A DNA stretch of 63,578 nt, counting the filler, from Nemertoderma westbladi (Eukaryota > Animalia > Xenacoelomorpha): NCBI GenBank assembly GCA_032718475.1. It is 3 parts of 3 records of this genome, joined end to end, with 100 filler letters (N's around TTAATTAATTAA, not from the genome) between each part and the next. Parts side by side here need not be neighbours in the genome. Positions count along the whole stretch, not along the records: positions 24,854 to 51,059 come from JAUCBJ010000338.1; 2 more parts are not named here. One strand, written 5' to 3'. A program made the translations under genes and the position numbers. Numbering within the stretch: the first letter of the stretch is position 1; every line of letters starts with the position of its first letter. The notes beneath the pieces are model-generated. The model did no database searches. It was not told where the DNA came from and saw only the letters and a program-made list of their open reading frames with translations. Positions 5,233 to 44,010 of this stretch are shown here, in pieces.

Positions 5233-5236
5233 TTAA

Positions 5237-15466: not shown

Positions 15467-15471
15467 TACCT

Positions 15472-15926: not shown

Positions 15927-15929
15927 AGT

Positions 15930-22513: not shown

Positions 22514-24753
22514 CTACAGGTCCTTGAAGGGTTGTCTGGGCAATGGCGGTAGGCGGACCGTGAGTGGTGAGAAACTTCCTTGGTTTAATAGTTCTTCCAG
22601 CTCGCGTTCTCGGGCTCGATATTCGTAGGGGCGTCGAGATACTTCCTGTAACTCAGGGTGCGAGTTGATAAATAAATCGCCATACTCAGGGTCTTGACGG
22701 ATATAATTGATCAAATGGTATGAAGTAATATCGTTAGGATTGACGTTCCTAAGGTATCTTCTAACAAATTTAGTGGAAATACACTCACCAACACGCTTCA
22801 TTAGCTCGTAACTCGGTATGCGTGTTTTTTGTTCCACAGACGCTAATAAATAAGGATGGAACGCGTAAACTCCCTCGTAAGAGCGTCCAGGGTAGTATCG
22901 ATGACGGGACTCACAGTGTAAATCCGCGTTAGCTTCCCAAGCTCGGATGTAGCGAAGGGTAATCATTTCATCTACGCTCTCTAAATCGTGATTAAAGGGG
23001 CAATTATAACTTTTCTTTCTTTGGTTCCAATCTTTGACGTAAGCTTTGATTTCATTGTTGGCGCCAATGAAGTTTGTTCCTTTATCGGATCTCATCGTGT
23101 TACTAGTGCCAAAGCGAGCGATCTGTCGTCGTAAGCTTAACCCTATTAGTACCGGGCTATAAAATGCTGTACAAATACCGGGAGGGGGTCATATTGACCC
23201 CCCCCTCTAAAATCTACAAATATTTACGAAAACGTCTGATTTTTTGTTTGTACGTAGGTATCACTTGTCTGGATCCGATCGAAAAAAAAAAATTTGAAAA
23301 AATGTACTGGGGTGGTTATATTGCAGCACCAAAATTACAAGTAGTGCACAATTTTCACAAAATTTGAAAGTTACATTTTCGGCTAATTATTTTTCAATAC
23401 AGGTTTTCTGGGGTGCAAAAAACATTGTAAAATATTTAAAAATGATATGATTACTATAAATGGCCGTTTAGTCCTCTCTGCGTAGGAAAAAAATGAAAAA
23501 AACAAGTAACCAGCACTTTTCAGTTAGAACACAAAATTTTTAATTCACTTATACGATGCTATAAATTCGCATTTTCAGGTTTTCTAGGGCGCTGATTCTA
23601 ATGGAATACATTTCTAAAATGCCCCAACATTGCTACTTGTATTTTTCGGCGTAATTTGACAAATTTTGGTGCTAGGACCAAATTTCGTACCCATCACCAA
23701 AAAGTACAAGTTTGCGATGTCCAGTGCTGTTTTTATTGATTCCATCGGATTCAGGACCCTCATAAACCCGTATAACGCAATAAACAAGATGATACTATCT
23801 ACTGATCAATTTGCTTATTTTCCAAAATTTGGTGCTGGCACAACAATTTTCACCCACCGGCGAAAAATACAAGTTTGAAAACTCTTATGAAATTTTTACC
23901 GATTCCATTGAATTCAGAACCCTCACAAACCCGTATAACGCAAGAAACAAGGTGACACAATCAATTTATATATTTGATGGTTTTCAAAATTTGGTGCTAG
24001 CACCACATTTTGCACCCACTTCCGAAAAATACAAGTTTGAGATGCCTAGTTCGAAAATTATATATTCCATTCAATTCAGAATAGCCATAAACCTCTAAAA
24101 CGCAAGAAATAAATTGTCACAAACAATTTTATCAATTGAATGGATTTTCAAAATTTCGTGCTAGCACCAAAATTTGCACCCACCACCGAAAAATACAAGT
24201 TTGATACGCTTGGTGCAACTCGTATATATTTCATCGAAACCAGAACCCCAAAAAACCCCAAATGCGTAAAAAATTAGTTTCAAACAATCAATTTACAAAA
24301 TTGACATAATTCAAAATTTGGTGCTGGCACCAAAATTTGGCACCCACCGAAAAAAACGAGTTTGAAATTTCTAAATCAATTTATATGAGTTCCATCAAAT
24401 TTCTAACACCAAAAAACCGGTGTAAATCAAAAATAGAGATGTTACAATTCATATTTAATGAAATGTAATTTTCAAAAAACGTCTCAAAAAAAGTGCCAAA
24501 AGTAGGGTTAAAAAATGGTGCTATAACTCGAAAAGTACCCAATATTTTTGAAAACGGTTTTCACTACTAGGAAGACAATAGATTTTTAGGAAAAGTCATA
24601 AAATTTCAGATTCCCAACTGCGTTTGTTTCAGAATTATAATAAAAAAACCACGGGGGGGGTCATATTGACCCCCCCCCGGGTTTAATAGGGTTAATAGAA
24701 AGCTGTTGGTAGATAAATCGTTCACCATATCGAGATGGATGGCTCTACAAGTC
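22514..24753 (-). pseudogene. pol: BEL integrase core fragment (split by a MITE) running into an unrecognised C-terminal coding region
   Basis: After removing 23141-24691 plus one TTAA: TCRAIHLDMVNDLSTNSFLLSLRRQIARFGTSNTMRSDKGTNFIGA. Confidence 0.88.
23141..24691 (+). mobile_element. piggyBac-like TTAA MITE with both ends
   Basis: TTAA at 23137-23140 and 24692-24695; same TIRs and body as 3700-5232. Confidence 0.93.
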
Positions 24754-24853
24754 NNNNNNNNNNNNNNNNNNNNNNNNNNNNNNNNNNNNNNNNNNNNTTA
24801 ATTAATTAANNNNNNNNNNNNNNNNNNNNNNNNNNNNNNNNNNNNNNNNNNNN
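24754..24853. other. Assembly gap with TTAATTAATTAA spacer
   Basis: N run with a central six-frame-stop pad; same structure at 51060-51159. Confidence 0.97.
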
Positions 24854-26782
24854 TGTACAGTTGAATGCCTACTGCTATATTACAGTCTAAGCAAGTCTAG
24901 TAACTCAGTATGAACTGCTAGCCTAGTAATTAATTACCGTTACTGCTACTCAGTGTAGCGTGATATATATATAATATATTAGAATACCGGTATACTTATA
25001 GTATATATAACTATATAAGTATTATTACAGACTAGGTTTATCACAGAATACCGGTATAATTTTAGCACAAATATATATAAATATATAATAGGCCTATCGG
25101 AATACCGGTATACAGCTTACAGTTTGTAGGATATATAATTCTGAAATAGAATTAATTACAAGTACCGGTATAATTTCAGCCTAGATTTATAGAAATAAAG
25201 ATAATAGGCCTATCGTAAATACCGGTATATCAATTATTTCAAATAATTGAATTTCTGTTACTTTAGGGTTACTTTGTTACTTTACTTACTTTATTACCGT
25301 TATTTGAGCAGTAATCCAACTGATATTGAGACCTAATTGTTATATGGTAGGCCTACTATTTATAAATCGTTAGATTTGATTTATAATATATATATACCCG
25401 TTTTAATGGGTTTTGTCAATTTTTGAAACAAATGTTATTATTTCTGGAGAGTAATCACTACACAAAGCGGTGCGCTTTCAGTGAAGTGTTACTGATAGGA
25501 CACTAAAACAAATAATACTAATTTACCTAAGTTACTTAATACTACAGATTACGTACAATTCGGGTGAGATTACAATCTCTAAATAAACACAAAAATTTAC
25601 AAAAAACACAAAATACGAATTTTCAGGGTAATTTTACAAGAAGTCTACAAACCAGCCTAACAAAGGGTTAGAATACCGGTTATTACAACGGACAGGGTAC
25701 TACGGTATTTGAAATAATAAGTAGTAGTAAATACACTGTGTTGTCTAGATAGGAAAATACCACCGCCTGACGACCTATAGCCGTATCGCTATAGGTTCTA
25801 CGTTATGTATCACGGAGTGTTCCTACCTAGAAGTTAATAGAGCTAATCGAATGTGCCTATCAACCACTTTACAACACAGATATAATGTCTACAATAATTA
25901 CTTCGGAAAGTACTGTACACTAAACCCTAAATTAGGTACGAGTACTTGTACAACAGATAATCAGTAGTTAAATATACTTGAACAGCTAAAAGAACCACGG
26001 CATCTGCTGGAGTGACCGATGCACAAAATCACCAGTCTTTACCTACGCCGAGCAGCCCGTGTAGTACCGGGGTTAATTTAACTATAGCGGTATGTATAAC
26101 AAACACAATTACTGTAGGAACAAACTTGGGGAATGAATGTTGCGGATAATCGCATAAACTCTGAATAATAAATATTACGCTACGCGTACAAACTACTCAA
26201 ACAAAATACAGACCGAACACTGACAGACTACTATCAAGCCTAAACAAACTACGGTATATGCAGACTCCGAAATGATTAGGGAGTATGCGCTCTAACCCAG
26301 TAGTGCGACTTATTCTTTAGTTGGGGGTTTACCTCACTGCGTTCGCTGCCCCTACTTCCTAATCGTACTTAATCGGACAGGTGATCTACACACACTGCAA
26401 TCCGTTCGGACTTAACAGCAATCAGACAACAGCTCAGCCTACAAATCGTCTGTACAATCTGATCAGGTTTACACGCCTTCTGTTCAATACTGGCCTACAA
26501 ACAAATAAAACTGACAGAAATAAGTAAGCTCCAAAAGAAACAAGGGGTGTACAGTCCCTAATCTCTTAAACAGCCTACCGGTATATAATAATCAAAATCG
26601 AATAATACTGCTGTACCTGTACTGCTGTAGGTACCGGTCCGGGTGGTTAGGTAGTCAGGCCTACTGGTACCGGTTCTGGCAGTTGGGCCTACTGACCTAC
26701 AGATGTACCTTTCAGGTTTACCGGTTGACCGGTACTTTCAACTTTATTGCTTACTGCAATAAAGAAGCTATATATCCTTTAA
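24854..26782 (-). mobile_element. 5' leader of BEL copy C
   Basis: Colinear with 12112-14300 (starts TGTACAGTTGAATGCCTACTGCTATATTACAG). Confidence 0.88.
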
Positions 26783-27998
26783 TGTTCTCGCTTTCAGACC
26801 TTTGGCAGTTTAACCCACCAAATTAAGATGTCTGCTAGATATTAAATCGGTTTTTAGTCTATGACAAGTATTTGATTCACTACACTAGTCGAAACCAATC
26901 TGTGCGCGATCATTCACCCGCTGGATATTCCCGGGAGATTGGGTTCGACGGTTTAATTTTATTGCTATGTAAGCCTAATGTATTATTCGACTGACAGTAT
27001 TATATAATCTCTGACAATATTATTCACCTTCGGGAATATTAACAGTTCCTTTAGGACGTGGCGCTTTATCTATATAAACAGAGTTATGACTTAAACTACT
27101 CACAACGATATGGCTTAATTATAATTCACATATATGGCGCATTCTTTAGGAATTGCTTCTTTAACAGACTCACTCATACACAATGCTGCACAATACTGCA
27201 CACTAATTTGCCAATCTTCACTGATTTTAGTCACATATAAAAGGAACACAGACTGACTCATGTAGGGTCTATCAAATAACATTAGATTCACTTCAAACCA
27301 CTTTAACATAAGTCACAATCGTTTATCTGTAACCCTTCTCTCTTACCTTCGGTATATCAAGAATATTGGGTTTCGGGGTTATTTATCGTTATTCCAAATA
27401 TAATAATTCATCAACCATGTTATGAAGAACTGACAGTAAATAGCAGTATAAAACAACAATGAAAACACTGATTGTTATGAGTTTGCAATGTTTCAGCAGT
27501 CAGCATGTATGATCAGTCAGCAGTGATTCCATGAGTCAGGTAGTTAAAGGATATATGCCCTTTATAATTAAACCTACTAGTGTAAGACTAAAAACTGAAA
27601 ACACGGAGGTGCCAAAGCCGGTTCTTAGGCTCTGGGCAAAAAACATAACACTGAACTACTGAGTTTCTGTATATACCTCCAACACAAAGACAACAAACGC
27701 TCTGATTGGTCAACCTGAACAACGAGAGAACAGAGAAACAAAGAAACGTCGACGTGGCAATATCAGCTGCTAGCTGTCGTCATGGTAGCGACACTGTTTT
27801 CAAGAGTATCGAGCTTTTACGTCACGGAATTACGGATTATGTCCTCTAAAGTACAAATACAGAAGAAATAGCTCTTATGTCCGCTAAAACACCAGTACAG
27901 CAAGGACACGGCCTTTTTATGCCTGGTAAACCAACTACAGAGTACTTTACGGGAAAAATAAGGAAAAATAACCGGACAATTCAGTAAAAGCTTTTACA
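26783..27998 (-). mobile_element. 5' LTR of BEL copy C
   Basis: Sense TGTAAAAGCTTTT...GAAAGCGAGAACA; homologous to the other LTRs. Confidence 0.92.
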
Positions 27999-28300
27999 GA
28001 CCCCTTCTCGTATCCCGTTTTATGGAAAATATAAAAAGTAAACACAAAATAGGATAAACAGATGGTCACATGTTCGACCCCTACTCGTATTCGTTTTATG
28101 GAAAATATAAAAAGTAAACACAAAATAGGATGAACAGATGGTCACGGGTTCAATCCCTAATCGCAACCATTATAAAACCAACACAAAATAAGTTAAACCA
28201 GGGTTCGAGTCCTACTAATGCAATTATAAAAAGTAGGTAACACGGATGGTCATGGATTCGATCCCTACTCGCGATCATTATAAAACCAACACAAAATAAA
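27999..28300 (+). repeat. Tandem array of ~54-76-bp units, each with TATAAAA and a tRNA T-arm/B-box motif
   Basis: TATAAAA at ~28030, 28106, 28171, 28225, 28279; GTTCGACCC ~28072, GGTTCAATCC ~28147, GGTTCGAGTCC 28202, GATTCGATCC ~28255; left end cut mid-unit by LTR C. Confidence 0.85.
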
Positions 28301-28338
28301 TAATATAGTAAACTTTCATGTATACCATAGTAAATAAA

Positions 28339-28854
28339 CTAATTTAATAATAAAGTTTGTAAAATAGAAAATGATTCGGGGAATTCAGCGGCAGGACACA
28401 TGGAAACGATTTTATTACTATGAAATACACTGAAATATGCACGTCCTATATATATTCTAATCGCGCAAAATAATTCGGGGGTATAGCTAATAAATATTAC
28501 TTTATTATTAATTGTATGATGTCCACATTTTTTCATTAATAATTTAAAATTAACACTTGGAAAAATAATAGTTCGTGTTTCGGTATTAAGTTTCAAATTT
28601 TGTAATTGCATACCGATAGTTTGTTTTAAATAAAGCAATTCACTTTCTAAATCATTGCATAGGCCTACAATTGTTACTGCGCCGCTGGGAAATAGCATTA
28701 TAGTTGAATCGTCACCTTTGTAGATAAACATGTTTGGTTTTAAGCAACTCCGACCTGTAATTTGCTGTGAAATTTTCTCTATTTCAAATTTGTCAATGTT
28801 TTTTCCGGTAAACTGTTTATTGGTTAATGCTAATTTGTTGCTCAATTTCTTATT
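28339..28854 (-). CDS. Divergent TATA-binding-protein (TBP)-fold protein, ~170 aa, core only
   Basis: Two TBP-like half repeats: LALTNKQFTG..IMLFPSGAVTIVG (cf. LQNIVST..ALIFSSGKMVCTG) and LKLNTET..SYTPELFCAI..SVFHSNKIV (cf. IQN..SYEPELFPGL..LIFVSGKVV); open frame, no ATG at the start, preceded by acceptor-like TTTTATTTTTCTAG. Confidence 0.72.
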   Translation of the reverse strand, partial: NKKLSNKLALTNKQFTGKNIDKFEIEKISQQITGRSCLKPNMFIYKGDDSTIMLFPSGAVTIVGLCNDLESELLYLKQTIGMQLQNLKLNTETRTIIFPSVNFKLLMKKCGHHTINNKVIFISYTPELFCAIRIYIGRAYFSVFHSNKIVSMCPAAEFPESFSILQTLLLN

Positions 28855-28868
28855 CTAGAAAAATAAAA

Positions 28869-31800
28869 TTAAGTCCTAATAGGGGGGATTACTACTCGTT
28901 TCGCCGGTCTAACAAGCTTAGTGCTATAGTGTCCGTATGGTTTGCTGCTATATTTACTACTCCAATATGATTTCGTATCCCAGAGCGTTAGTGCCTTCTT
29001 ATAGACATGACCAGTAAAAATTTGATGCTTTCTAGAAGTGAAGGTAGAGTTATAGCGGAAGAGCATTGCCTCATTTTCAAAACAGGCTGCATAATCCTCG
29101 TGTGTTAGTTGCTTAGCGACAACCGATCTAGATACACCTTTGGCGGTTTTCTTGATTGGGGCATCGTAGGATTGAAAACTGTAGACCTTTGGTTTAAGGA
29201 AAACCCACTGTTTATACTGCAAACCGCAGCTCTCATCTTTTACAAAGCCGAGAGCCGCTTTGTGTTTAATTGTATAGAGTGGATGTGTTGTACTGTAGTT
29301 GGAAGTATCTAGGAAACCACCCTCAAACATTGCCCGTAGAAAGGTTAGCTGTGGTGTATTAGTTACGCTTAGAATTAGAGAATCGGTGTCACCAGCTAGA
29401 CAGCGAATCTGGCAATCCAGTTTTTGTTCTAGAGGCTTCAGGTTGTTGTAAAATAGGTCGTACATCTGTAGCTTAGATAGATCTAGTATAGTGCAACCGG
29501 TGAACACGCCCTGATTTAGGCAAACAGCCTCTTTTAGTGAAAGTATGACCACTCAATTTGGGGGTAAAGACAACAAACGATTCGTGGTTGGGCTTGGCTA
29601 AGAGCAAATGGCATTGCTCGTCGCTATTGCATAACCTGAAAGAAACGCGGTCTCTAACCTTTTGGAGGCATTTCCCATACAAGGCATTGTTCATCAACTT
29701 ATAAAATAGGACCTCGAATGGGTTATTTGCCGACTGTCTTTTACTCGTATTAAAACTAATGTAGTCCTTGAAAATATATTTTTGTGAGAAAGAGTAGACC
29801 CTGTGAACTTGTGTAAGTTTAAGACCGAGCTTCAAATAGAGCTGAAGTAGCTTAATATGGATACCGTATTCAACCTTATTAAACTGATGTAGTAGTAGCT
29901 TAGTACAGGTGTCGTTGTATGGTTTATAAGTAGCCGTATCGGTGAGATTGTAATGCTCCCAAAGATCTTCCATGTATTCGCTAAGAAAGGATTTAGGGAC
30001 TGACATCTTCTCCGCTCCTAGAGGCAGATCGGCGGTCAAATCATGAATTTCTTCCGGGTAATGTAGATCAACTATGCAATAATAACCAGTGTCCCCACTC
30101 GCGTCTACTGTAGCTAGGTCTATGGGGGTAGTTACGAGTTTAATATTAGCGTAGGGAAGTTTCTGGCTCAGGGCGCAGCCGTAAAGGTTATTCGCATCGA
30201 TGGGAATTAGATATTTCTCGGGGAGACTGGAGTCAAAGTCGGGTTTATCGGGGATATTTGCGTCTACGGAATGTGTATTCAAGAAAACTAGACCACCCCT
30301 AATATTTGTTTCAAAGTCCGAGTAGATGGAAGCGTCTGATAGTAATTGAATTTCTGATTGCGTGAATTTCAGCGCCGCGTCGTAAGTTAATCCTGGGGCA
30401 GTGAAGTACATTACGGGCTCGAGTCCATAATTAGTAAGACAGAGGGATCGGAACTGCTCGAAAGTATCAGCCAATAGGGTAACGTCTAGAACCAAATAGC
30501 CAATCATATAGTCGAAGATTGATGCGCAGTTTAATTCATCCCAAGTAGTAAGCGCGCGCTGATAGTTTTCTACGCTGCATTGCTCCAATTTGAGATCATT
30601 ATAGAAGCTTTCTATTGGGGGGAGTGTAGTTTCGTGTAGGTTTGAAATATTTTGAATGTAAGAATATGGGAATACGCCCTTTTTTTTATTGTGTTATCGC
30701 TAATATTGGAATATTGAGCTAGTGTATGGGGTATGGCTGTTGCTAGGTTACTATTATTTTTAGTGAGATAACTACTGAGATTATCTAGGCTGGCAGTCAT
30801 AAATTGATAGGAATCTAGAAAATTAGTGGAGATACTTTCTTTAGCATTGGCTGTTGGTGTACTCGGATCGATTGGAAAGCTAACTTTAAGGTGAATATAG
30901 GTTTCGGTGTTTTTTGGTATTACAGTCATTTTCCAGTGTGTTCTAGAACTATCGGTCATTCCTTCTTTTAATAGTAAATGCATATCGAATTTCCTCAAGT
31001 TATGAAATATAATATAAAAATTATTCCGTTTTAGTGATAGTTTCCTGTTGCAGCTAATGCAAGAACCCCCTCGATACTCCCCGCTATAATGATAGTGATC
31101 GCGGACTTTGGTACTGAGATTGTCAATGAGGTTTAAATTATGAGAATCAGGGGTTAAATTACAGTTGCAGACGTAGCATTGTGTAGCGTTATTAAAGTCA
31201 GTTTGTTGGCTAGTAGTGAGTTGCATAGGGGCGTGCGTGTTTGTACTAGAAATGGACCAATCGTATAACTCCCTACAATGACTTTCCCTAGCGGTTAGAA
31301 AGTCGCGCATTACATGGTTACTGCCATCGTCGCGGAAAATTTGAACATCTGTTTTAGGGGGGTTAATTAATTTCTGATTTGCTACTGTATAAAAGGCTGC
31401 CGTGCTAGCTTTATGTTTCTGTGGGAGTTTAATATTGTTTGTAGGTTCTAGAATAGTTTCAATGTCGGCGTATATACAGAAAGGTTGGGATAGAGTCTCA
31501 TCGTACCGGTCAAATTTAACCAGGAGATTTTCGGGCATATACTCGAGTTGTCGTTTACCCGTATAGCAGCGCTCTCGATGTTCTTCCAGCGAGTTGTCAG
31601 TGTAAAAGGCTCTGAGACAGCGTTCGCAGTGCGTCTTGTTGCCGGTAGAAGTAGCTTTTGTATTTATTAGTCTATCTATGGTAGTAATAGCTACGTAGTG
31701 GGTGGGGTTTTTGGATGTGGCTTCGATAAATAATAAATTTAGTACAGTTTTAATGGAACAGTGCGCGCTATCTGGTTGATTTACAGTAGAATGGAGAGTT

Positions 31801-32587
31801 CTTCCTTATTACTCCAATATAAAAGGTTTATACAGTATAAAGGTTTGCTTTCAGAAACTGGGGAATACCAGTTACTCTGTCCACCGGAAAACTTAAACTG
31901 GAAAATTCAAACATGTTTAAGAAAGGAGTATATGTTGATCTTCTTTCGATATTATTTTTTTTTCTATCAATTTTCTTATAATTCGCGGCGGCCAATACTG
32001 CGTATTTAAAGCATTCCCCCAGCGGGCAGTCTACGCTTACGGTACAATGTTTATTTAATAATAATTTCGAATTATTGAAGCCTTGACCCTTTAAATAGGG
32101 GTTGCGTTGGGAACGCGCAATCTCAATAGTTATTCGCTCGATAGCTATTATGCGCCAACCCGAGCCGAGGCAGAGAAACACACTTAATAGCTGATCGATA
32201 CGATTGACGGCGCCAGAAAACCAGTTATTAAAGTCGCTATTATTTAGAATTTGATTATTGTTACCGCTAGATTTAAAACAGAATGATTCAATTTGAAAAC
32301 CCTTGCTGGTTTCGCGCTCCATTGCGATATTGATAGTTAGCCAGACTCTTAAAAAAGTTCCCAAAGCACTATGTAAATGGCTACTAACGTGTTCTTGGAT
32401 ATGTGGAAAATTTCATTTAAAGTTAGTTCAACATCGAGTCTTGTTTAGGAGAGATCATTGTTATAAGTAAACAGTTGTCCGTGTGCGCTTCCGTTGGAGG
32501 GAGGTTGAAAGGGATTGTTTGGCGAAATAGAGTTATAATCTCGCAAAGTTGATGTTTTGTTATTGGAGCCGCCGCCGCCGACTTGTT
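28869..32587 (-). pseudogene. polB: Protein-primed family B DNA polymerase (Polinton/adintovirus type), several frameshifts and stops
   Basis: GSGW..CFKYAVLA N-terminal region, CERC..H..C finger, IYADIET (ExoI), CYVC..VRDHYHYSGEYRGGSCISCN, FHNLRKFD (ExoII), FLDS, KGVFPY (frameshifted), DVTLLAD, IRGG, DANNLYG, YKLMNNALYGK, GDTDS, KPKVYS, KGV. Confidence 0.92.
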
Positions 32588-32841
32588 CTGGAGTAGAGTA
32601 CAAATGAATAATTAATTTAAAATTAAATACAAATAATTATTTAAAATAAAGTACAAATAAATAAAGTACAATTAAATAAATTAATTAAAAATAAGTATAA
32701 TTGAATAAATACAAATAAATAAATTAAAATTAATTATAAATAAATAGGTAATAATATATCTAAATAAGCCTCAAACATCTTGCCTCATAGATCGCCCCTT
32801 AGAACTCTTAAGCAATATAACTACATAGTTTTGCGGATTGT

Positions 32842-32914
32842 AAATAACAAAGCTAGAGAAGATGTTAATTTTCAAATAATACGCCCTCTAGCGGCAGACA
32901 GGGGAACTTCAGAC
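32842..32914. repeat. ~72-bp direct repeat, copy 1, with CTCF-like motif CGCCCTCTAGCGG
   Basis: Closely similar to 38013-38084; the two copies flank the LINE. Confidence 0.8.
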
Positions 32915-33111
32915 TACTCTATAACTCCGCAAAAGATATGGCCTATTATTATTACTATTATTATTCACGTACACCAGTTACCTGGGAACAAAGTATGCAC
33001 TGTACTTACATAGATACATGGTGTAGTAGATAGAGCACAATTTGTACTAATGGTTGAACATAAACGGCAGTAAATGAAGGAACACCAAACAAAAACACCA
33101 AAACCACAAAA

Positions 33112-36100
33112 TTAGACAGATGAAACGTAATCCAATATAGATTTCAGCTCAATATTTGAAAAATTATCTACAGAAGCAACATTGGAGATCGCATCAATTA
33201 ATTCTCTGCACAAGGTAATTCTTCACTCATCTTCAACTGCACAAATAGAATACTTAAGTTTTCTAGCTACCAAATTAGCAGTTAATTTAGTAATATCTGA
33301 TATACCAATGAGATTTGCAATATACCGTAAATTACACCCACTAGTACTCCTACAGTCGTATAGAAATCGGTAGCCTAGGAACCACAGACACAATCTATCT
33401 GAAGAAATAATCGAATTAGTAAAGTTAATAAAATTTTTACACATTGAGATCCAAGGATGAGGAAAATTAACCAAACCTTCTACTATAAACCTATGCGAGT
33501 TATAAGGTAAACCACAGACAATTCGAACGTTAGTAGTCCAACTATTGAAAAACTTCTTACATTCCATTGATTGAAAATTCCATAAACTACTACCATACAA
33601 ATCTAAAGCATATAAACGTTGAATGTAAGTTATATTTGCCGGGTGACAGTAATAAAATTCTTGTTTAAGATTATTAAGTTTACCTATTAATTTACCCCGT
33701 TTCAACAAAATGTCATCTGAAAAACAGCACTTATAATCTAGCACATTGCCCAAATGGGTTGCCTTTTTAACCCAAGGCAAAACACAGTTACCTATAACAA
33801 TTAACGCAGTTGGTGGGTTCCAACATTTGCTAAAAGGGATACACTTACATTTACTTTTGGATTGGTCACTACTTACACTAAGTCGCAAACCAAATTCTCT
33901 ACAAAACCTTTGGCATATATTAACCATAAACTGCAGACCGGACACTGATGGGCACAAAAGAAGAACATCATCAGCGTACGCCAAAACACCAAAATACTGC
34001 CCTCCTACAAAACACCCCACCCTACAAGATCGCAGTGACTTAATTAATATATGCAATACCACACAAAACAAAATCGGGGAACAAACTGAACCCTGACGCA
34101 CTCCATTCGAAGTATTAAATTGAAAAGAGAGAGCGTTTAACCATTTAACTGAACAAATTTGGTTTTTATAAATAAACAACAGACATCTCAAATATAAGAC
34201 AGAAAATCCCTTTTTAATTAGCTCTAGGAATAATTTTGGCCATTCGACTAAATCAAAGGCCTTCGTGAAATCTAAAAGGCAGCCATACACCGGTGTAGAA
34301 TTACGAGAATAATAATTTATCACTTCAGAGGCGGACCAGGTGCACATGACTGTACTAGACTTTATGCGGAAACCAAATTGCAAATCGTCAAGACGCAACT
34401 TGTCTCCTTGACTGATAAGCATTAACCATTCAAAAACTTTCAACAATAATGCACAGATAGCAATAGCTCTATAATTGTTATCATCAGATAAATCACCAAG
34501 ATTATTTTTAACTATAGGAACAAACGAAATTGACAGTAAACTATTAGACACAAAACCGTGCGATAGAAAAGAATTAAACAACTTTGCTAAATGACTTTCT
34601 AAAACGGGGCCACCATTAATTAATACACCAGAGTCAAAAGAATATGCCACATCAGATTTAGCATTTTTTAATTTCAAAAGGGCCTCGTGAACATCAGAAG
34701 TGGAAATAAATTCACTGTGACCCGCACAATTTTCACTACCTAGCAGGTGAACTTCATCGATTCTACTTTAAATTTCAATTCGAACTAAATTATCTACTTC
34801 AGTCATTTTATGCGTATTGGTACCGGATACAGGTTGGTTGTACAGATCCTGGTAGACCCTTGCAAAATTATTCGCAATTTCTACTGGATCAGTACAGCCA
34901 CCCACCGAACCACTTACAACAGACTGATTACCTCGCAGTTTTTTAATCGCATCAAAAATGCATCTATTCCCAGACAAACAAGCATCCAAAATTTTATCGT
35001 GTTTAACCAAATTCTGAGTCCGCTTTAGCCTACGGACAGCATATTTATACTGTGCTCTAGACTGCCTACGCATGAAATTCAAATAACTATTGGCAACTGG
35101 TCTCCCAGCTGACCTCCAAACATCGAACCAGAACATAGCCTCCGTTTTGAAACCTTTCACATATTGGTTCCATCCTGGAATAGTACGAGATCTACCATTG
35201 GCCTGCTGACTTCCGCCAGTTTGAGGCAAACATGCTGCAGCTGTATCTAAAGCCTTTAAAATATCAAGCGAGTAATTATCCAAACAAAGTCGATGTTCTG
35301 GAGATGTGCACAACAAATCATTGCAATTAAAACAATCGGAATGTAAATTAATATTCTGAAGATTGGTATTTAAACTACTCAAAAATAGCGAGATATCATC
35401 AGTGGAAGCTTTGGAAAACAAACTTCTAGAGGATTTCTCATTTTCAACTACATCAAAATTTAACAAACCTACTTTAAATTTCATATATATTGCACTGTGG
35501 TTAGATAGATTTGAACCAGAATGTATAACATCAGCCTCATAACACGCATCTAGTACATCCCTACTCACAATAAAGTGATCTATAGTAGAACGATGTATGA
35601 CATTATCAAACATAAAAAGGTAAGTATAATCTATAGGGAATACATTCCACATGCGAGAAAGCGCATTGTTTTCTAAAAAATCCTTTAAATATTGCACAGA
35701 AGCTGACGTACGTAAGAAATCAGCATTTAAATCTCCCACCCATATCACACTGGTACTAGACGTTCTTGATATGACATCGTCAATATCATTTAAAATACAC
35801 AGAAAGTCATCAGAAAGTGATTCCATGGTCCGTGAATCTGTCGGAAAATATGTGTTTAAAAGTAAAAGATTTCCACCCGGCAATTTCAACTCTAGTGCTT
35901 GCAAGCGTGGATTATTAGTTTTAACTACACGAATATATTTAGATATTGATTTACACCATAAAATACAGAGGCCACCGCTGGGTCTACCTCTACCTACATT
36001 ATCATCATTGAAATACGCTGGCACTGCATTGAAATTATGGTTGGGGAATAAACCCTTAAATTTAGTGCAATTCGCTGACAACAAAAAATGTTCCTGTAAG

Positions 36101-36264
36101 CATACAATTTTTGAACTGCATAACAATGCATTAATAAATTCAACTTTGTCTAACCCGAGGCCAGTACTGTTATAAGATATAACTGATAGAGACTCCATCG
36201 ATGAATCAGAGTTCGCCCCAATATTGTTACCGCTAAGGTTTTTTGAGTTACAGGCATTCGCCAT
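33112..36264 (-). pseudogene. LINE ORF2 (APE endonuclease and RT) with two in-frame stops (34768, 33223)
   Basis: SYNSTG, CLQEH, GRPSGG, NTYFP, VGDLNAD, IDHF, SNHSAI; NYRAI, QFGF, LDFTKAFD, GVRQGSVCSP, YADD, HLG; frame continues through both stops. Confidence 0.92.
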
Positions 36265-36279
36265 CGCTCCGTTAGTTAA

Positions 36280-37830
36280 TTAAGCAAATGTACCGTTACC
36301 ACCACGATCAGAAGGCCGGTAAGTCCACTCATGTACATGGACACCCCGCGGCCACACATCGGGATTGAAAGCGGCATCGAGTTGACTCGCTCGTAACCCC
36401 ACCCTGAAACTCGCAGCCCGCGCCTCTGGGCGCGATACACGCTTAATGTCACGTGCTTGCACTGACAACCCTTTGTCAGCTAACCAAGTAGACATCTGCG
36501 ACACAGTTACCTCCGGCGCCACCCGATAGACGAATAACTCTGTCGGAGCGGCCCGCAACTGGGGATTCCCAGAGTCACTTACTGTCACGGGGGAACCTGT
36601 AGTACCCACAATCGCACGATTCGGAAGTTGATTTTTTGGGAGGGGAACTTTCTGCTGCTTGCGAGCCAAACGAGTATCCTTCTGCGAATGTTGAACTGTC
36701 CAATCAGTATTCTCTTTGTCTGGAAGAATCTCCATCTCAGAATCAAAAAGTACCTCATTGGTGTCATCACCAGCGTCGCCATCCGTGTCAGACAACGGGC
36801 GCGGTCATTTGACACTGCCTCTTTCCTCAGCAACTTGATTACTCGATGCTCGCGGTGTAGCAAGCGGGTTGAAGTAACCATACCCAAGCCGATTATTCGT
36901 TTGCGGATCAACCTGAACTGTTTCAAGTAATTTCGGGCGCGCTCCAGCCGACTTCCAGACAGCCGACCCAGAATGTGGAGAACGATTCCTACGATCCGCC
37001 ACCACATTCCGGAACGACCTCTCCACAGTCGGAGGTCCATGGAGATTAGCCGCTCCGCCACCACCACCAGGACCACGTAACCCTGCCAGCCTGAGGGGAG
37101 GGGGCGGTTGCGGGAAATTGTTACCAGCCGGTTTGTCGATACCATTAAGTTTATTCATAAGTCTACCCTCAAGAGATCTAAACTCATCTTTCATATTAGA
37201 TTCAAGTTTACAAAATCGTTCAGTTACAAGCGTAAACACCGAAGTATTCTCTGCACTATTCATCCCGTTGTCCCCAGCGCCAGCACTACTGCTAGCTGAG
37301 ACATCAAACGAAGGCAAGGAAAGCGCATCAAGGGCTCCCACCGCAATCACAGGAAGAGAACCAGACCGATCGAGATCCTTGATTTTATCCACGATATCCT
37401 TCATATTTGCCACTGCAGCACTTCTCTCGGAAGTGTCACGCCTGTTACGACACTCACCGCTCGACTGGGCAAATAAAATCACTTTAGCTGCCCACACCTC
37501 CTCAGGCGTAAATCGCGAGAGACAACGCGATACGACTACTTCAGTATCAACAGAGCTAATACCCTGCAGCACAGCAGATAGACACTAGTTAACAATAGTT
37601 GAACTGACGCTTGGAGTGTGTCCTTGAACCACACTACCGAAATCCAAATTACCGCTACCGGTACCCGAACCAGTACCAGTAACCTGCGAATCTATCTCAG
37701 CACCAATACCAACATCAGAGACAGAGACACGTGATCGTGTAGCAACACCAGATAGCACGCCAACCGATCCCGGCAAAGTGCCATCAGGCACCCCATCGCC
37801 GGCCAGCGATTTATTACCAATCTCAGTCAT
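36280..37830 (-). pseudogene. LINE ORF1 with two in-frame stops (37585, 36805)
   Basis: Three track ORFs share one frame; FTPEEVWAAK..DIVDKI region, coiled-coil-like segment, C-terminal RRM-like LFVYRV..SFRV..WPRGVHV; ends just before ORF2. Confidence 0.85.
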
Positions 37831-38012
37831 GTAGATTAGCCAACACGGCTATACGGTCAAGCAGAATGCAGATAGCAGATGCAGATAGCAGATTAATAGT
37901 ACCTAGTACTGCTGTACTATACTATATGCTGTTTTTATACAGCGTGAATTTACTCGGCCCATATGTCCATGCCGTAGTAGATGCCTACCGAGTTTAAACC
38001 TGTTCGGAATGA

Positions 38013-38084
38013 AAATAACAAAGTTAGAGAAGATGTTAATTTTCAGATCATACGCCCTCTAGCGGCAGACTATGGAACTGCAGA
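38013..38084. repeat. ~72-bp direct repeat, copy 2 (CTCF-like motif)
   Basis: Matches 32842-32914. Confidence 0.8.
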
Positions 38085-38420
38085 TGGCTGGATATAGGTA
38101 AAAGTAATTAGTAATCAGAGGTGTCACGAGAGGGGGGCGGGGCGCTTGGATACAACTATTATTAATAAGCTGTTGCTTGGTTAAAGCTAATTGGGGGTCA
38201 AAGGTCAACGATAATGCTGTCTGGATATAGATAAGAGTAATTAGTTACAATGTATTTACAACTCAAGTGTGGATCAGGATAGTTTTCGTTAAGGTTTCAC
38301 CTTGGTGAAGTGGAAGCATTGTATTATATTTCGAGTACCATTTTTATTGAAACTACGGGGCTTTTTATATTAGCCGATTTTTCAAAATTTGAAAGTTTTT
38401 TGAGGGTTTTTATAAAAAAT

Positions 38421-38507
38421 ATAGGGATTGGCTGTTTATTTAGGGATTAACATTCAAATTGATTACGAAGAAGCAATAGGGGTCATTAATGGTATGCTGA
38501 GACTCAG
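38421..38507. repeat. ~86-bp dispersed direct repeat, also at 40515-40599
   Basis: ATAGGGATTGGCTG...ATGCTGAGACTCA nearly identical at both sites. Confidence 0.85.
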
Positions 38508-38545
38508 AAATTTTCAGGAATTTTAAATTTTTGCCTTCGCTTCGC

Positions 38546-38612
38546 GGAAAATATAAAAAGTAAACACAAAATAGGATACACAGATGGTCATGGATTCGAT
38601 CCCTACCCCGAC
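38546..38612 (+). repeat. One more TATA/B-box array unit, same orientation as 27999-28300
   Basis: GGAAAATATAAAAAGTAAACACAAAATAGGATACACAGATGGTCATGGATTCGATCCCTAC matches the units at ~28024 and ~28100. Confidence 0.88.
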
Positions 38613-38613
38613 C

Positions 38614-38674
38614 AGGGTCAATATGACCCTCCCCCGGTATTTGTACAACATTTTATAGTCTGGTACTATTAGGG
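38614..38674 (-). mobile_element. ~60-bp terminal fragment of the piggyBac-like MITE
   Basis: GGGTCAATATGACCC...GGTACTATTAGGG followed by TTAA. Confidence 0.85.
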
Positions 38675-40927
38675 TTAAAGCTACTAAACTAAAACATAAC
38701 AAAGCGCAATTATCGTATCTGTTCCAACTCAGTTTAGGTAATATACTATAATAATAGTGATAGCAGATGCTTTTAATTTCGCGATGAAATAATGTCAGCA
38801 AACGAAATATAGCGTATACATCATAGATAGAGTTTTAATTTAGTATGGTTTTATCTGTAAATTTTTATTTTGATCGCAATAGTAAAAAGGTTATTATGTG
38901 ACTCATGAAAATAAATCTTAAATACAATACAAATGTTCCATCTTGGTGAAGTGGATGCAATGTATTTACAATTCAAGTGTGGATCAGGCTCGTAGGCAGG
39001 ATTTTTTAGTTGGGTAGACCTGGGAATATCAGGTTAGGCAGACGCAAATGTTATTTTTGATAAATTTTACAATAGATTTAACTGTTTAATTGTATACAGT
39101 GGGTAGAAAGCAAACCTACAGTAGGATGTACATGGAGTCCACCATCAGTTCATCATTTGTATACAAAGCATAATATAAACAATGGTAGAAATCGCGTAGG
39201 TCCGCGTCTACAAGTCTACTAACGCATTAACTGACTCCTTGAATGGCTTACTATCAGTATTACTACTAAAAATTCATTGGAGAGTGGGATTGAACTCGAT
39301 GTATAGTTAAATAGTAAATCGAGTAAAATACTATATGTATAATTACAGGTTGGCTGGGTGCAACCTTCGATCACTTACAACCTTCCCTCAGGTGCAATCT
39401 TCGCCCGCAAAATTTCCAGGAATTTTAAATTTTGCAGTCGCATGGAGTGATAAACCCTTAGGTGAAAGCTAAATTTGCTCTACTTTAATCAAATGGGGCA
39501 TTAAAGCTACGAGTTTATTTTCCTTTACATCCTCCCTCGATCTTAAGCAAATCTAGGTAAAAGGAGGTTGAAGGGCTATCATTCCCAACATATGCGGTCC
39601 TCCCTGTAATGTTTCATTGTTCTATTCATAGTCGCCTTTAAGCATTTCTCGGGAAAATAAGGATGAGGGGCTATCACTTTCAACCCCTCCCTTTCATGAT
39701 TTCATTGAACTATCCATAGTACGAACAATTAAACCAAAGCCTTTGAATATCGCAATAATTTTTATTGTCCGTTTTTATCCTTTTTTTGTCATTTTTTTTT
39801 TATTTTTTATGTCATCCAAAAGTCTAATGTTATTCTGTATTTTAGTACCGGTACCGGTACTGTAACCTGCTCCTTTCTCTCAATTGGTAATGTTATCGTT
39901 TATTGTTTTGGTTAGAAAATCCCGTCTCTGTAACCTGCTCCTTTCCCTCAATTAGTTAAAAGTTAAATTAGTTAAATTAGAAATCAGCAGTCTGACAGTT
40001 TGAAGAAATACATACATAAAAAATGACAATAAAAGTCATTAAATGGACAACAAAAGTCATTATGCATAATTCGTAAAAAAAAATGACAAAAAAAGTCAAA
40101 TAAAATGACATAAAAAACCACTGCCTTTGAATATAGGGCTGAATATCCTCGCGTCTTATCAGCGGCGCCATGGCTAACGGCTTAATATTAACAGTGAAGC
40201 ATCTAAAAGACAGAGTGCTGAGTGTCTATGATAGGGCAGAACAGTATACTTACAGCTTAGAGGTGGGCGCGCTGAAAATTTTGTTCGCCATCAATACATA
40301 CAAAGCATCGCTTGATGGATAGAGTAATAGCGTGGATATTTTCATTTTGGTGAATATAATTTATGTGGCCTTGGTTTCGTTATGGAAGTGAGGACTGAGT
40401 TAGTGGTGGGTATCAGGCGGAAGGTAGGATTAATCATGAAAATCGCTAAATAATATATTTTAATTAAATTCAACTCTGACAAACAACTTGCATATCGAGT
40501 TTGTAAAGAATTCATAGGGATTGGCTGTTTATTTAGGGATTAACATTCAAATTGATTACGAAGAAGCAGTAGGGGTCATTAATGGTATGCTGAGACTCAC
40601 TTACTTCATGGCTCGCTCTCATAGTATAGATTAACTAATAGAGAAAAATGAAAAATATCAGATTAAACATCTTATATTTTTTAAACAATAGGGGGAAACA
40701 AGAATAAATAATTTACCGACAACATCAATATTAAATAATATAACAACAACAGATAAATAATTTACCAACAACATTAATAATAAATAATATAAGAACATCA
40801 ACAATAACAAAAGATATAGTCAGAACAGTTTTTAATAAATAGAGACTGTTTATATTAATAGGGTTGCTGCTCTCCGAGACTGGTTCGTTGCTGCTCTCCG
40901 AGACTGGTTCAATAGGGGCGAGGGAGA

Positions 40928-41198
40928 GCATCCACTAGGTGAAAGGCCACAGTAGTATAGAAGTAATTATACATATATTATGCTGTAACCGGTCCAGTTT
41001 ATTCAGTTGTCAGTTACAGTGCAGACCGGCATTATAGTTTTACCGTCATTGCGGTGCTGCCATATACCGATTTATTATTCCCGTACTCTGTTATCCAATT
41101 TGCTATCATCACTTATATATTATACTTAGTTGAACATCAAACTCTAACTTTTCCGTATCCACCCATCGGCCTGCTGTGACGCTGTGCTGTCGTGTCAC
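40928..41198 (+). repeat. LTR-like repeat related to 17670-17935, ending GTGTCACA
   Basis: Shared colinear blocks; CA end; start not defined. Confidence 0.4.
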
Positions 41199-41260
41199 AT
41201 TAAATATAAATAAATAAGTATTAATAAATAAAAGAGCTGCGGTGTCACTTATGACACCCA

Positions 41261-41575
41261 CTTGGGCCTCTAGGTGACACTTGGACCCAACTGATGACCC
41301 ATTGTGTGTCAGGGCGCTAATCAATCTGATTAATTAGGATAATCAATTAAACCTTAATTAGGAGTCATAGGACACCTCTTAGGTTTTAATTGTACTAATT
41401 AATTGATGACACCTGTCAATTAGGGTCTAATTAGCCTAATTAGGAGGTGTCACCCAGACAGTCTGGCGCCAATGACACCCAATGACACCCGGTGGATGAT
41501 AATTGTTTGTCATATGACACCCAATGGGTGTCAGTTGGGTCCACGTGTCACAAACCTATAACCTATAGGCCCAAG
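41261..41575. mobile_element. Small foldback/MITE-like element with TGACACC repeats
   Basis: CTTGGGCCTCTAGG-GTGACACTTGGACCCAACTGA... is inverted relative to ...TCAGTTGGGTCCACGTGTCAC...CCTATAGGCCCAAG. Confidence 0.65.
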
Positions 41576-41582
41576 CCTATAC

Positions 41583-41736
41583 TACTTGTGTCCCTAGGCA
41601 AGACACTTTGTGCCTACGCCAACCCAGCGGTATAATGGGAACCTGGCTTTGCTGGGGTAATGATAATAAAAGCTCTTTGAGTATGCTGAGCGTAGAAAAG
41701 CGCTATATAAATAACCAATATTATTATTATTATTAT
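41583..41736 (+). mobile_element. CORE-type SINE, 3' part
   Basis: TGTGTCCCTAGGCAAGACACTT core-like motif, then AGCGCTATATAAAT and a (TAT)n tail. Confidence 0.6.
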
Positions 41737-41812
41737 AAAATGACTTCAAAGAATTATATAATACGTAATAAATATATTATAATTATACATATTATTACTA
41801 TGTAATTAGCAG

Positions 41813-42065
41813 GTGGTTTTCTTCTCTCTGGTAATTGGTTGTTTCTTGATTGTCTGCGACGCAACCATAAAGGCGGTTGGCACATCGGGATGCAGGGATA
41901 TGAACGCCTACTGTAACCATGGTGCATGTCTTACGGATAAGTTTGAGCCCACAACGCCATTCGTAGGGATGGTCATCTCGAGGCGTCGGAGACAGATTGC
42001 TACCCCGTACTGTCTATGTGGATCTAAACTCGGTGACCAGGAATACGATGGAGGCATTGGATGCG
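41813..42065 (+). CDS. Host exon: signal-peptide tail and EGF-like domain of a secreted Cys-rich protein
   Basis: TAATTAGCAG acceptor, G|GTGAGT phase-1 donor; VVFFSLVIGCFLIVCDA then C-x6-C-x4-C...C-x-C...C. Confidence 0.72.
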
Positions 42066-42599
42066 GTGAGTCCATTTATTATACTGTAGAAATTAAATTA
42101 ACCTGCCTCTAAGTCTACAAATAGGAGGTCACGCGTTCGATCCCAGTCAGTTATACTGTATATAATTCTGCATCTGGTGATATACAGTAGGCCTACCCAT
42201 CGACACATTTAACTGGGGGATTAAAAAAGTTAAGGTTCGGAATATACATACTTGGAAGTACAGGAGGTGTGGCACACAATCGACCTAAAGGTAACTGACA
42301 ATAGAGTAGCAACTTCAGTTTCCCTCCGGTATTTCGTGATCCACATTAATAAACTAACATTTTACTTTACGATAATGATTGCAGATTATGCATAGTAAAC
42401 ACATTCACAGATTGAAGAAGTGAGTTCAAGAATTCAATTACTCATCATGATAACTACAGTATCTCTCTTTCCACAAAATTGATACTTAGCCTATCCCAAC
42501 AATTAATTAATTTGGTGTGTTATTCTATTCAATTGCGAAAGGTAGTCTAAATTTTTTGTTTTTATTTCAATTTAAAGTTATGTAAAGGAGAATCTTTTA

Positions 42600-44010
42600 G
42601 ACTCGATGAGGCCAGAATGCCTGTTCACCACCATGGGCGATCTTCCTTCCACAGTAAACCTCCCACTCTGTTTCCCAAGTACATTGGTTGTGAAAGCTTT
42701 TGCGGCAAAGTTGATATTTTTGTGCAATTCGCTATCTACTCTAAACGCAGCAATCTCTCAAGGTTGTTGAGAACATATAATCTTACTGTATGCCTTACTG
42801 TGTTTGATTTTGGTATACGGCTTTGAGTTGACGCACTGCCTTGAACAGCCCATAAGCAGTACCCTGGTTCCTTTAACAGGCATCCCAGTTATATCAAAAC
42901 GACCAATCAGGGCAATTTTCACTTTCGTACTCCGTAGAGTTCCTTTACACAGGAAACTGGATCCATGGGTTACTGGCAGTTGACAAGGGTTACTGGCTTT
43001 TTATTGGAGTTTTGACCAGAATTCCGAGAAACTCTATGACTCACCTTTTTCGCTTTTTGTGATACTTCAGTGTAGTGCATACCTAAATCCGGCAGTCTGG
43101 TAGTGCTAGCCCGAAATAACTGTGGCATAAATCATAGAGCACTGTAAAAGTTACCTAATCAACTCACTAATTAACTCACTGATTATGAGATCAACTCACT
43201 AACGGCAAAATTCATGTGACTGCTGATTCACTACACTGCATTTCTGCCGCCACCGCTGGTATTTTACTACTTTGTACCGTTGTTTATTGTTTATTTGGTA
43301 ATATTATTGCTCGATGTTTATATTTGGAGAACACGATACGATTTGGAGAACAATATTTATGCCAAAATTATTTCAAAATACCAACGTGAGTGAGCTGAAA
43401 TTCTCCTCATACATGAGCAAAATTAGTCCGAGTCAGCAAATCAATGTATTTCCGTATTATCGTCAGCTGAGTGAGTGCGAGTACATAATACTACATCCCT
43501 AAAGGATGTAAATAACAGTGGCTCTATTAAATCATCCGTTGTAATTATCGTAAGTTATAACTCTGTATAGTATTTAAATAGCAGCATCTGAAAGCAACTG
43601 CTAATACTACCCTGAAAGTGAACATAGTTTGAGAGATTACAGTATATAGTAGAAATCAATCGAATAATACAGTATAAAGTAACCTACTTCTTATGCCGAT
43701 AGAATTCAGTCTCCCACACATACCGCATTATACGCCGCGCAAGACTGACTTTTATCAATAGTTCTACTTTGGTGCAGGCTAGCGAAATAATATAAGACAC
43801 ATAAATTAGCAGGTTAAACTGTTAAAGGTCTAAAAGCGCGAACATTGGTTCTCCCTTATCCACCAGTCAAGGATGAAAAGCGGGTTGTGTTAGGCTGCAC
43901 CATTTAAAGCACTGTGTCTAAATAGTGCTGCCCCATATAGGAATCGATCCAGTACCAGGGCATGCGGATTGGAAGCCCAGGAATGTCACAGACCAAGCTG
44001 CTGCTTGGTC
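42600..44010 (-). mobile_element. Old tRNA-derived SINE split by the solo LTR
   Basis: Reverse strand has B-box-like GGATCGATTCC and CCGCTTTTCATCC...GGATAAGGGAGAACCA, resembling the core of the SINE at 51926; boundaries approximate. Confidence 0.4.
42689..43844 (+). mobile_element. Solo LTR of a diverged member of the BEL LTR family
   Basis: TGTGAAAGCTTTTGCGG...AAAAGCGCGAACA flanked by 5-bp TSD TTGGT (42684-42688, 43845-43849). Confidence 0.88.

What the first reader, a model, noticed from the sequence alone, without database searches (positions are those of the whole stretch)
27999..38612. Compact pPolB + TBP-like element bracketed by TATA/B-box direct repeats: candidate new self-replicating element
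Seen: a protein-primed PolB pseudogene, a TBP-like frame starting 14 bp after its stop on the same strand, then a TATAAAA/B-box array, with the same array unit again at 38546 in direct orientation. Subtracting the ~5-kb LINE leaves a unit of about 5.5 kb carrying only these two genes. Known: Polintons/Mavericks normally have terminal inverted repeats, an RVE integrase, a packaging ATPase, a protease and capsids; none is visible here. Inference: a minimal plasmid-like or virus-segment-like replicon, with direct terminal repeats or tandem integration, whose TBP-fold protein may bind its own TATA array for transcription or origin recognition.
Basis: partly seen in the sequence, partly recalled or inferred. 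Interest (0 to 1): 0.92.

Follow-up and report, generated by a model that had tools for sequence, protein, structure and literature searches.

The report
Maverick polymerase arm with own TBP
A broken protein-primed DNA polymerase gene, a TATA-binding-protein-like gene and a short repeat array sit together in what is likely dozens of copies in an animal genome; they are likely one arm of a virus-like Maverick transposon whose relatives carry the same two genes, and the repeat on the far side is a single unit that likely does not mark an end.

Summary
The parts are real. There is a frameshifted pPolB with an OTU motif and an EndoVII-like domain. A TBP-fold frame starts 14 bp after its stop (pLDDT 93; TM about 0.75 to TBP) and has no start codon. 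Five TATA units follow, and one 61-bp unit recurs at 38546. A 5025-bp LINE is a later insertion.

The 'new replicon with direct terminal repeats' reading is not supported. The polymerase falls in a 100/100 clade with Mavericks that carry the same TBP family plus ATPase, integrase and capsid. 22 of 23 long loci of this TBP family have Maverick hallmark neighbours. The left limit is another transposon next to an assembly gap. The right unit is single, and multi-copy DNA likely continues past it.

Still unusual: PolB abuts TBP directly, TBP is followed by an array rather than a gene, and no other Maverick gene lies in the window. Read depth suggests roughly 45-70 copies. Whether the family lost capsid and integrase cannot be settled without an assembly; I put a reduced two-gene derivative at about 0.3. 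The scan noted TBP-bearing Mavericks before, in other genomes.

The parts
27999..28310 (+). Array of five TATAAAA units (periods 76, 65, 54, 54 bp); four end in a B-box-like word, the first degenerate. The left end abuts another repeat.
   Evidence: no tRNA or Rfam match
28339..28854 (-). TBP-fold open frame, 171 aa, two lobes, no start codon before residue 42. Three of four DNA-intercalating Phe positions are kept (F55, F129, F144; Pro40 at the fourth by repeat spacing).
28855..28868 (-). 14-bp spacer: pyrimidine-rich tract ending in TAG, likely a splice acceptor for the TBP exon (inferred)
   Evidence: sequence; related loci L045, L053 and L054 also have a T-rich tract just before their TBP ATG
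28869..32412 (-). Protein-primed PolB pseudogene (N-terminal region, OTU Cys and His motifs, C2H2, EndoVII/HNH-like insert, exonuclease, polymerase) with three frame breaks; catalytic motifs readable in the pieces
32413..32590 (-). Possible further N-terminal stretch in another frame, preceded by an acceptor-like tract at about 32588 (inferred; no homology hit)
32600..32760 (.). AT-rich low-complexity stretch upstream of PolB
32834..32913 (.). 80-bp repeat, second copy at 38005-38084, each with a CTCF-like word (motif recalled). Far deeper in reads than PolB, so likely a separate repeat family.
32946..37970 (-). Non-LTR retrotransposon (ORF1, endonuclease, RT; microsatellite tail), a later insertion and not part of the element
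   Evidence: empty-site joint 32945-37971
38248..38506 (.). Non-coding segment; 38266-38429 is at about 0.4-0.5 of PolB depth and holds a minus-strand TATAAAAAG at 38361-38369, a possible PolB promoter (untested)
38507..38545 (+). Lead-in to the right-hand unit; high summed depth, and joined to the unit in another, diverged copy
   Evidence: bin 38492-38533; X2 record 10, 38507-38620, 9 differences
38546..38606 (+). Single array unit in direct orientation
38615..38678 (.). Last 64 bp of a piggyBac-like MITE end, finishing in TTAA; a relic
38679..39480 (.). Multi-copy DNA past the right unit: 38675-38829 joined to 39420 in X3, at about one third to 0.6 of PolB depth; its far end was not reached

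Best explanation
This is likely the polymerase arm of a Maverick/Polinton (Alpha adintovirus-type) family that carries its own TBP-fold gene, likely present in dozens of integrated copies, and this copy is frameshifted and bordered by other repeats. Shown: the identity of both genes, the placement of PolB among TBP-bearing Mavericks, the array next to the TBP stop, and the LINE as a later insertion. Inferred mechanism: in an unbroken copy PolB would copy the element by protein priming, with the OTU domain releasing the terminal protein (model of Krupovic 2024). PolB and TBP would be made by alternative splicing from a shared upstream leader, since both are preceded by acceptor-like tracts and the TBP frame lacks a start. 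The TBP would bind the element's TATAAAA words. The array faces the plus strand, so it would not drive PolB or TBP themselves; it more likely serves a convergent unit beyond it or acts as a binding platform. Integrase, ATPase and capsid genes would lie beyond the array in full copies.
For: In the tree of the unbroken PolB core (54 rows), the window falls in a 17-row clade (100/100) with L045, L053 and L054, and with none of the 25 viral-contig rows. None of the 30 viral loci encodes the TBP family. L045 reads PolB, PLA2-like, TBP, ATPase-like, zinc finger, RVE integrase with chromodomain, and a weak capsid hit. 55 of 73 TBP-family loci, and 22 of 23 of at least 3 kb, have PolB, PLA2X, ATPase, integrase or capsid beside TBP; L104 does too. 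TBP occurs in several gene orders. In 10 of 51 loci with at least 400 bp downstream, the next recognised gene is a capsid gene more than 300 bp away, on the opposite strand in the loci inspected. L054 has 1.8 kb before PolB with a 215-bp direct repeat, so repeats upstream of PolB are ordinary. Diverged 85-90% copies exist beside the young ones, as expected for a long-resident mobile family. Two PolBs of the clade lie on contigs of 14.7 and 19.5 kb (P0002, P0009; contents unseen).
Against: No other Maverick gene was found in 63.6 kb: 1388 ORFs from 103 loci gave only PolB, TBP and 8 short hits under 29 bits, none within 24854-44000. In all 4 TBP loci with PolB, a PLA2-like gene lies between the two; here the gap is 14 bp. 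No relative has the TATA/B-box array (0 of 103 loci). No inverted terminal repeat was found. A variant of the right-hand unit is about as deep as PolB (0.9-1.2), and its lead-in has high depth, which fits a closed unit that returns to the array. The window TBP is on a long, unplaced branch. The DNA beyond the array in other copies was never seen.
Confidence: 0.55

Rival explanations
1. A reduced Maverick derivative of about 5-6 kb that kept only PolB and TBP. A deletion would have joined the TBP stop to an array from the element's own upstream region, and the unit would be amplified in tandem, as a circle, or with a helper's integrase.
For: PLA2X and ATPase are missing from their usual places. 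Depth stays high from TBP into the array. One unit variant occurs about once per PolB, its lead-in is deep, and units laid at 38546 run on into further units. Capsid-less offshoots of Polintons have arisen before (PMC11161782 and PMC8097293, passages).
Against: No contig joins the right unit back to the TBP side among the joints shown (15 of 39 in table 5). The segment 38266-38429 is at only 0.4-0.5 of PolB depth. In many copies the right unit seems to be followed by the piggyBac relic and further DNA rather than by TBP (inferred from contig ends). No integration enzyme or termini were found, although protein priming needs termini.
Confidence: 0.3
2. One reading: a new kind of replicon bounded by direct terminal repeats, whose TBP recognises the terminal TATA array as promoter or origin.
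For: The same unit lies in direct orientation on both sides, and only two genes lie between them.
Against: The right copy is one 61-bp unit. Both limits coincide with other repeats. Similarity does not extend outward (27940-28023 against 38460-38545 is at shuffle level). Multi-copy DNA continues past 38612. Both genes belong to a Maverick lineage.
Confidence: 0.08
3. The unit at 38546 is unrelated to this copy's structure: it belongs to a separate repeat family, or to a second insertion, that happens to lie upstream.
For: 38266-38429, 38675-38829 and 39420-39480 have similar depths to one another, lower than PolB. They share short internal repeats with 38932-38988, 39410-39433 and 40500-40599. 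A much deeper repeat separates them from PolB. X4 holds array units but shows no depth at 38240-38365 or 38492-38533 (a hole proves nothing).
Against: A same-orientation unit 5.5 kb away (LINE removed) is unlikely by chance for a family of about 60 copies, and depth ratios are similar in two samples. This reading is also compatible with the best explanation.
Confidence: 0.07

Closest known systems
Mavericks/Polintons with Alpha-class PolB (adintoviruses; Starrett 2021, PMC8502044, passages and section 3.4 read)
   Same: OTU plus PF03175 polymerase; integrated in an animal genome in many mostly degraded copies. A TBP label appears in the legend of their Fig. 5 (MELD viruses, non-animal section; the figure itself not seen).
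   Different: No integrase, ATPase, protease, capsid or TIR is visible here; PolB abuts TBP; a TATA/B-box array follows.
TBP-carrying Maverick-like contigs found here (L045, L053, L054, L065; other orders in L081, L075, L060)
   Same: Same PolB clade (L045, L053, L054), same divergent TBP family, same strand and order (PolB then TBP), T-rich tract before TBP.
   Different: They have a PLA2-like gene between PolB and TBP, an ATG on TBP, an ATPase right after where the contig reaches (L045, L065), and no array. The window TBP is only 19-30% identical to the family.
pPolB2 Polintons with an HNH insert (Jeong 2023, bioRxiv 10.1101/2023.08.22.554363, passages)
   Same: pPolB with an inserted HNH-type nuclease domain (weak Endonuclease_7 hit here).
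   Different: Those were selected for five core genes and TIRs. Identity of the insert with theirs was not tested.
Cytoplasmic linear plasmids (pGKL type; PMC11161782, passages)
   Same: TP-vOTU-exonuclease-palm polymerase; Polinton-derived by loss of the capsid module, the precedent for the rival reading.
   Different: They are free linear DNAs with their own RNA polymerase (recalled), not chromosomal repeats with likely introns and a TBP.
Bidnaviruses / bidnaparvoviruses
   Same: Small genome with Alpha-type PolB.
   Different: Their vOTU is inactivated (PMC11161782, passage), whereas Cys and His motifs are present here. No NS1-like or capsid gene was seen.

Membership tests
Maverick/Polinton | Protein-primed PolB | tested here: met
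   (frameshifted in this copy)
Maverick/Polinton | RVE integrase | tested here: inconclusive
   Absent from the window. The copy is cut by a repeat and a gap, and other copies could not be read (no genome).
Maverick/Polinton | Packaging ATPase, protease, major and minor capsid | tested here: inconclusive
   Absent from the window (queries were all ORFs of 103 loci, protease and minor capsid not separately annotated); not testable for the family.
Maverick/Polinton | Terminal inverted repeats | tested here: inconclusive
   None between array, lead-in and upstream DNA; the true ends were not identified.
Maverick/Polinton | 6-bp target-site duplication and 15-20 kb length | not testable with these tools
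   Ends unknown; contigs of the runs are too short.
Alpha adintovirus PolB class | N-terminal OTU domain plus PF03175 polymerase | tested here: met
   PF03175; Cys and His motifs read in the translations and matched to P0001 by eye; no OTU profile was run.
TBP family | Two-lobed saddle fold | tested here: met
TBP family | Four intercalating Phe | tested here: not met
   Three are invariant in 31 of 31 rows; the first-lobe position is Pro by repeat spacing. Role of these Phe is recalled.
TBP family | Binds TATA DNA | not testable with these tools
   Needs a binding assay.
Element with direct terminal repeats | Repeats mark both ends and similarity to other copies stops there | tested here: not met
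   The right copy is one unit with multi-copy DNA beyond; the left limit is another repeat.
Pol III type 2 (tRNA-like) promoter | A box plus B box, TATA far upstream | tested here: inconclusive
   B-box-like words lie 30-42 bp after TATA, shorter than the usual geometry (recalled); no clear A box by eye; no tRNA or Rfam hit.
Bidnavirus | Inactive vOTU, NS1 and capsid genes | tested here: not met
   vOTU motifs present; no such ORFs between the units.
Cytoplasmic linear plasmid | Free linear DNA with TIRs and own RNA polymerase | tested here: not met
   This copy is chromosomal and nested among transposons, with no such genes; a free form was not testable.

The most novel reading that the evidence does not exclude
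An animal Maverick lineage has shrunk to a 5-6 kb unit holding only a protein-primed polymerase and a private TBP, closed on its own TATA/B-box array and amplified to dozens of copies without capsid or integrase: a nuclear, plasmid-like or tandem replicon, the animal counterpart of the capsid-less plasmids that arose from Polintons in fungi.
Probability: 0.3. Interest if true: 0.8.

Novelty: new variant of a known kind. Interest (0 to 1): 0.45.

Why it matters
The solid result is that a clade of Alpha-type Maverick polymerases travels with a divergent TBP family. In my six literature searches a TBP in such elements appeared only as a figure-legend label (PMC8502044). It suggests these elements bring their own promoter factor, and this family offers a clean test because a TATA array sits next to the gene. 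If the family also proves to lack capsid and integrase, it would show reductive evolution of a Maverick into a two-gene replicon in an animal nucleus. It would also raise the question of how a protein-primed polymerase works without inverted ends.

Tried and rejected
No genome is held for the window, so no copy could be read in full.

Sequence-only searches with the TBP frame were weak or blank: no hit in the word-index search or in PDB sequences, Pfam E 0.009 under cut-off, and only 2 hits at E about 1e-3 among 1.84 billion representatives. The atlas gave TBP clusters at 0.94-0.95 but with low recognition. The single-sequence fold failed (pLDDT 34).

Viral-contig scans found nothing for the window PolB piece, P0122, A3, A4 or the array word. 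The TBP tree could not place the window protein (branch 3.2).

Expression: no RNA holder was listed. X5 (another organism, RNA only a guess) gave short PolB pieces at depth 2-3; I do not use these as evidence.

Retrozyme or tRNA origin of the array: no Rfam or ARAGORN hit. TATAAAAAG alone is not enriched (5 against 2.2 expected), so the minus-strand copy at 38361 is only a lead.

A piggyBac-mobilised composite like Teratorn (seen only as an abstract start) was considered and rejected: the DNA beyond the TTAA appears constant in many copies (X3 depth 1278 at 38701 and a 572-deep contig starting at 38675), so the relic does not behave as a mobile end. This is an inference from contig ends.

Read-through fusion of PolB and TBP was rejected: the frames differ and a stop intervenes. 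Supplements of the papers were not opened; gene tables there may list TBP-like genes.
Full report
Observation. The minus strand carries four overlapping open pieces from 32412 to 28869. They match DNA_pol_B_2 (E 4.7e-14) and, weakly, Endonuclease_7. The best of 1425 longer relatives is 46% identical to the core piece (120 listed). Relatives align across all four pieces, placing three frame breaks near 29533, 30680 and 31790-31840. Exonuclease and polymerase motifs and OTU-type Cys and His motifs can be read in the pieces, which fits the Alpha class of Starrett 2021 (PMC8502044, passages) and the TP-vOTU-EXO-PALM layout of Krupovic 2024 (PMC11161782, passages).

The TBP-like frame (28339-28854) begins 14 bp after the PolB stop. 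Two distant hits led to a family of 33 divergent TBPs. A profile of 30 of them, without the window protein, scores it at 57 bits, while nothing else among 2000 ORFs passes 11 bits. With the 31-row alignment the model reaches pLDDT 92.7 and matches TBP structures at TM about 0.75 and viral TBP-like models. F55, F129 and F144 are invariant; the fourth Phe position is Pro40 by repeat spacing. There is no ATG before residue 42, and the spacer is a pyrimidine tract ending in TAG, so splicing is likely needed. A similar tract lies at about 32588, upstream of PolB.

The array has five TATAAAA units, and the unit at 38546-38606 is 90-92% identical to the first two. It is one unit only. All units face the plus strand: against TBP on the left, away from PolB on the right. 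No tRNA or Rfam family matches. The LINE occupies 32946-37970, with an empty-site joint in X1 and X2 (one sample; sides 24 and 29 letters, under the tool's 31-letter bar).

Boundaries. Left of 27999 is a 3.1-kb repeat with a second copy at 12112-15466, and then an N gap. Right of 38606 are eight bases and the last 64 bp of a piggyBac-like end. No inverted repeat links the two sides, and similarity does not extend outward from the units. So the finding's coordinates mark other repeats, not shown termini.

Other copies. No genome is held. I laid public contigs: X1, X2, X3 and X5 on 27500-39500, and X1-X4 on 38240-39480; these come from four samples of four studies, X1 and X2 being one. Both outputs are cut to the best-supported rows, and no listed piece spans the whole stretch. 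Summed depth over TBP and PolB is about 13,000-31,000 in X1, against 250-600 over the LINE. The tool warns that depth is no copy number. As a rough inference I divided four single-contig PolB depths per run by the depth of three or four diverged, presumably single-copy contigs and got 63, 46 and 69. On the right, 38266-38429 and 39420-39480 are at 0.4-0.6 of PolB depth, a variant of the 38546 unit at 0.9-1.2, and the bin before the unit is deep. One diverged contig bridges lead-in and unit (X2 record 10). Loose ends show some units running on into further units and others apparently into the piggyBac relic. In X3, 38675-38829 is joined to 39420 at depth 572 (side 30). I read this as multi-copy DNA continuing past the right unit in about half the copies. 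What lies beyond the left array in other copies was not seen.

Relatives. A scan of metagenome contigs with the TBP family returned 73 loci. 55 of 73, and 22 of 23 of at least 3 kb, have a Maverick hallmark beside TBP: ATPase 35, integrase 26, PLA2X 22, capsid 12, PolB 4. Several loci are near-duplicates from related samples, so these are not independent counts. L045 is a near-complete element: PolB with EndoVII, PLA2-like, TBP, ATPase-like, zinc finger, RVE-chromodomain integrase, weak capsid hit, RING. Of 51 loci with at least 400 bp after TBP, 25 have ATPase within 300 bp, 10 have a capsid gene farther off and 16 have no reference gene. I listed the ORFs of 22 loci with few or no hallmarks and found further gene orders but no adjacent PolB. 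The tree of the unbroken 382-aa core used 25 of 120 protein hits (the top 20 and 5 named ones), 25 of 30 viral loci and 3 metagenome loci; LG+G4, bootstrap not fully settled, no outgroup. The window is sister to P0001 (98/89) inside a 17-row clade (100/100) that holds L045, L053 and L054 and no viral-contig row. None of the 30 viral loci encodes this TBP. Polymerase and TBP therefore likely came together from one Maverick lineage.

What differs. No relative has PolB directly against TBP, none of 103 loci has the TATA/B-box pattern, and 1388 ORFs from these loci find no other Maverick gene in the window. The window TBP is far from all family members.

Verdict. The parts are those of a TBP-carrying Maverick. 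The most likely reading (0.55) is one arm of a longer family with a new gene order; TBP position is fluid in relatives, and most vertebrate Maverick loci are degraded (96%, PMC8097293 section 6). A reduced two-gene derivative amplified as a unit remains a real rival (0.3), because of the missing neighbours and the depth of the right unit and its lead-in. Direct terminal repeats as stated are unlikely (0.08). The mechanism (protein priming, shared spliced leader, TBP binding the element's TATA words) is inferred and untested. Three earlier AI notes of this scan on TBP-bearing Mavericks in other genomes shifted my reading and prompted the neighbourhood test; they are not counted as evidence. Six paper searches found TBP with such elements only in the Starrett figure legends; 'TBP' and 'TATA' did not occur in the main text of PMC11161782, the Jeong preprint or PMC13215967, nor 'TATA' in PMC8097293. 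Of the other listed papers I saw only titles and abstract starts.

Noticed in passing
window 32882-32894 and 38053-38065: The only two matches in the window to a recalled CTCF consensus lie in the 80-bp repeat that brackets the LINE; this repeat is far deeper in reads than PolB and has several different continuations.
   Followed up: partly
window 33223-37848 (-): The LINE's ORF1 and ORF2 lie in one reading frame, separated only by single stop codons at 37585, 36805, 36280 and 34768; it has about 2-3 close copies by depth.
   Followed up: no
window 41810-42066 (+): An exon-like frame with a hydrophobic start and spaced cysteines, resembling a small secreted EGF-like protein; no Pfam hit.
   Followed up: partly
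window 23137-24694, also 2659-5044 and 44112-44967: piggyBac-like MITE family with TTAA ends and 162-bp internal tandem repeats; one copy interrupts a BEL/Pao element.
   Followed up: partly
window 12112-15466, 21023-22190, 24854-27998, 51170-51834: A 3.3-kb repeat family without long ORFs, with a 290-bp internal duplication and variable 3' neighbours; class not determined.
   Followed up: no
window 878-945 and 42115-42145: tRNA-like A-box/B-box or B-box-only words outside the array; the second resembles the tail of the array unit.
   Followed up: no
window 3253-12137 and 19111-23188 (-): BEL/Pao retrotransposon pieces (DUF1759, protease, Peptidase_A17).
   Followed up: no
L104 (whole 3823 bp): A contig filed in a bacterial MAG carries PLA2X, TBP, ATPase and integrase in Maverick order, so it is likely a eukaryotic-element contaminant.
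   Followed up: partly
L060, L061, L075, L081, L083, L089, L091, L096: TBP is often next to a small gene that looks like an exonuclease-fold protein by eye (acidic motif near the start); at least four gene orders occur in the family.
   Followed up: no
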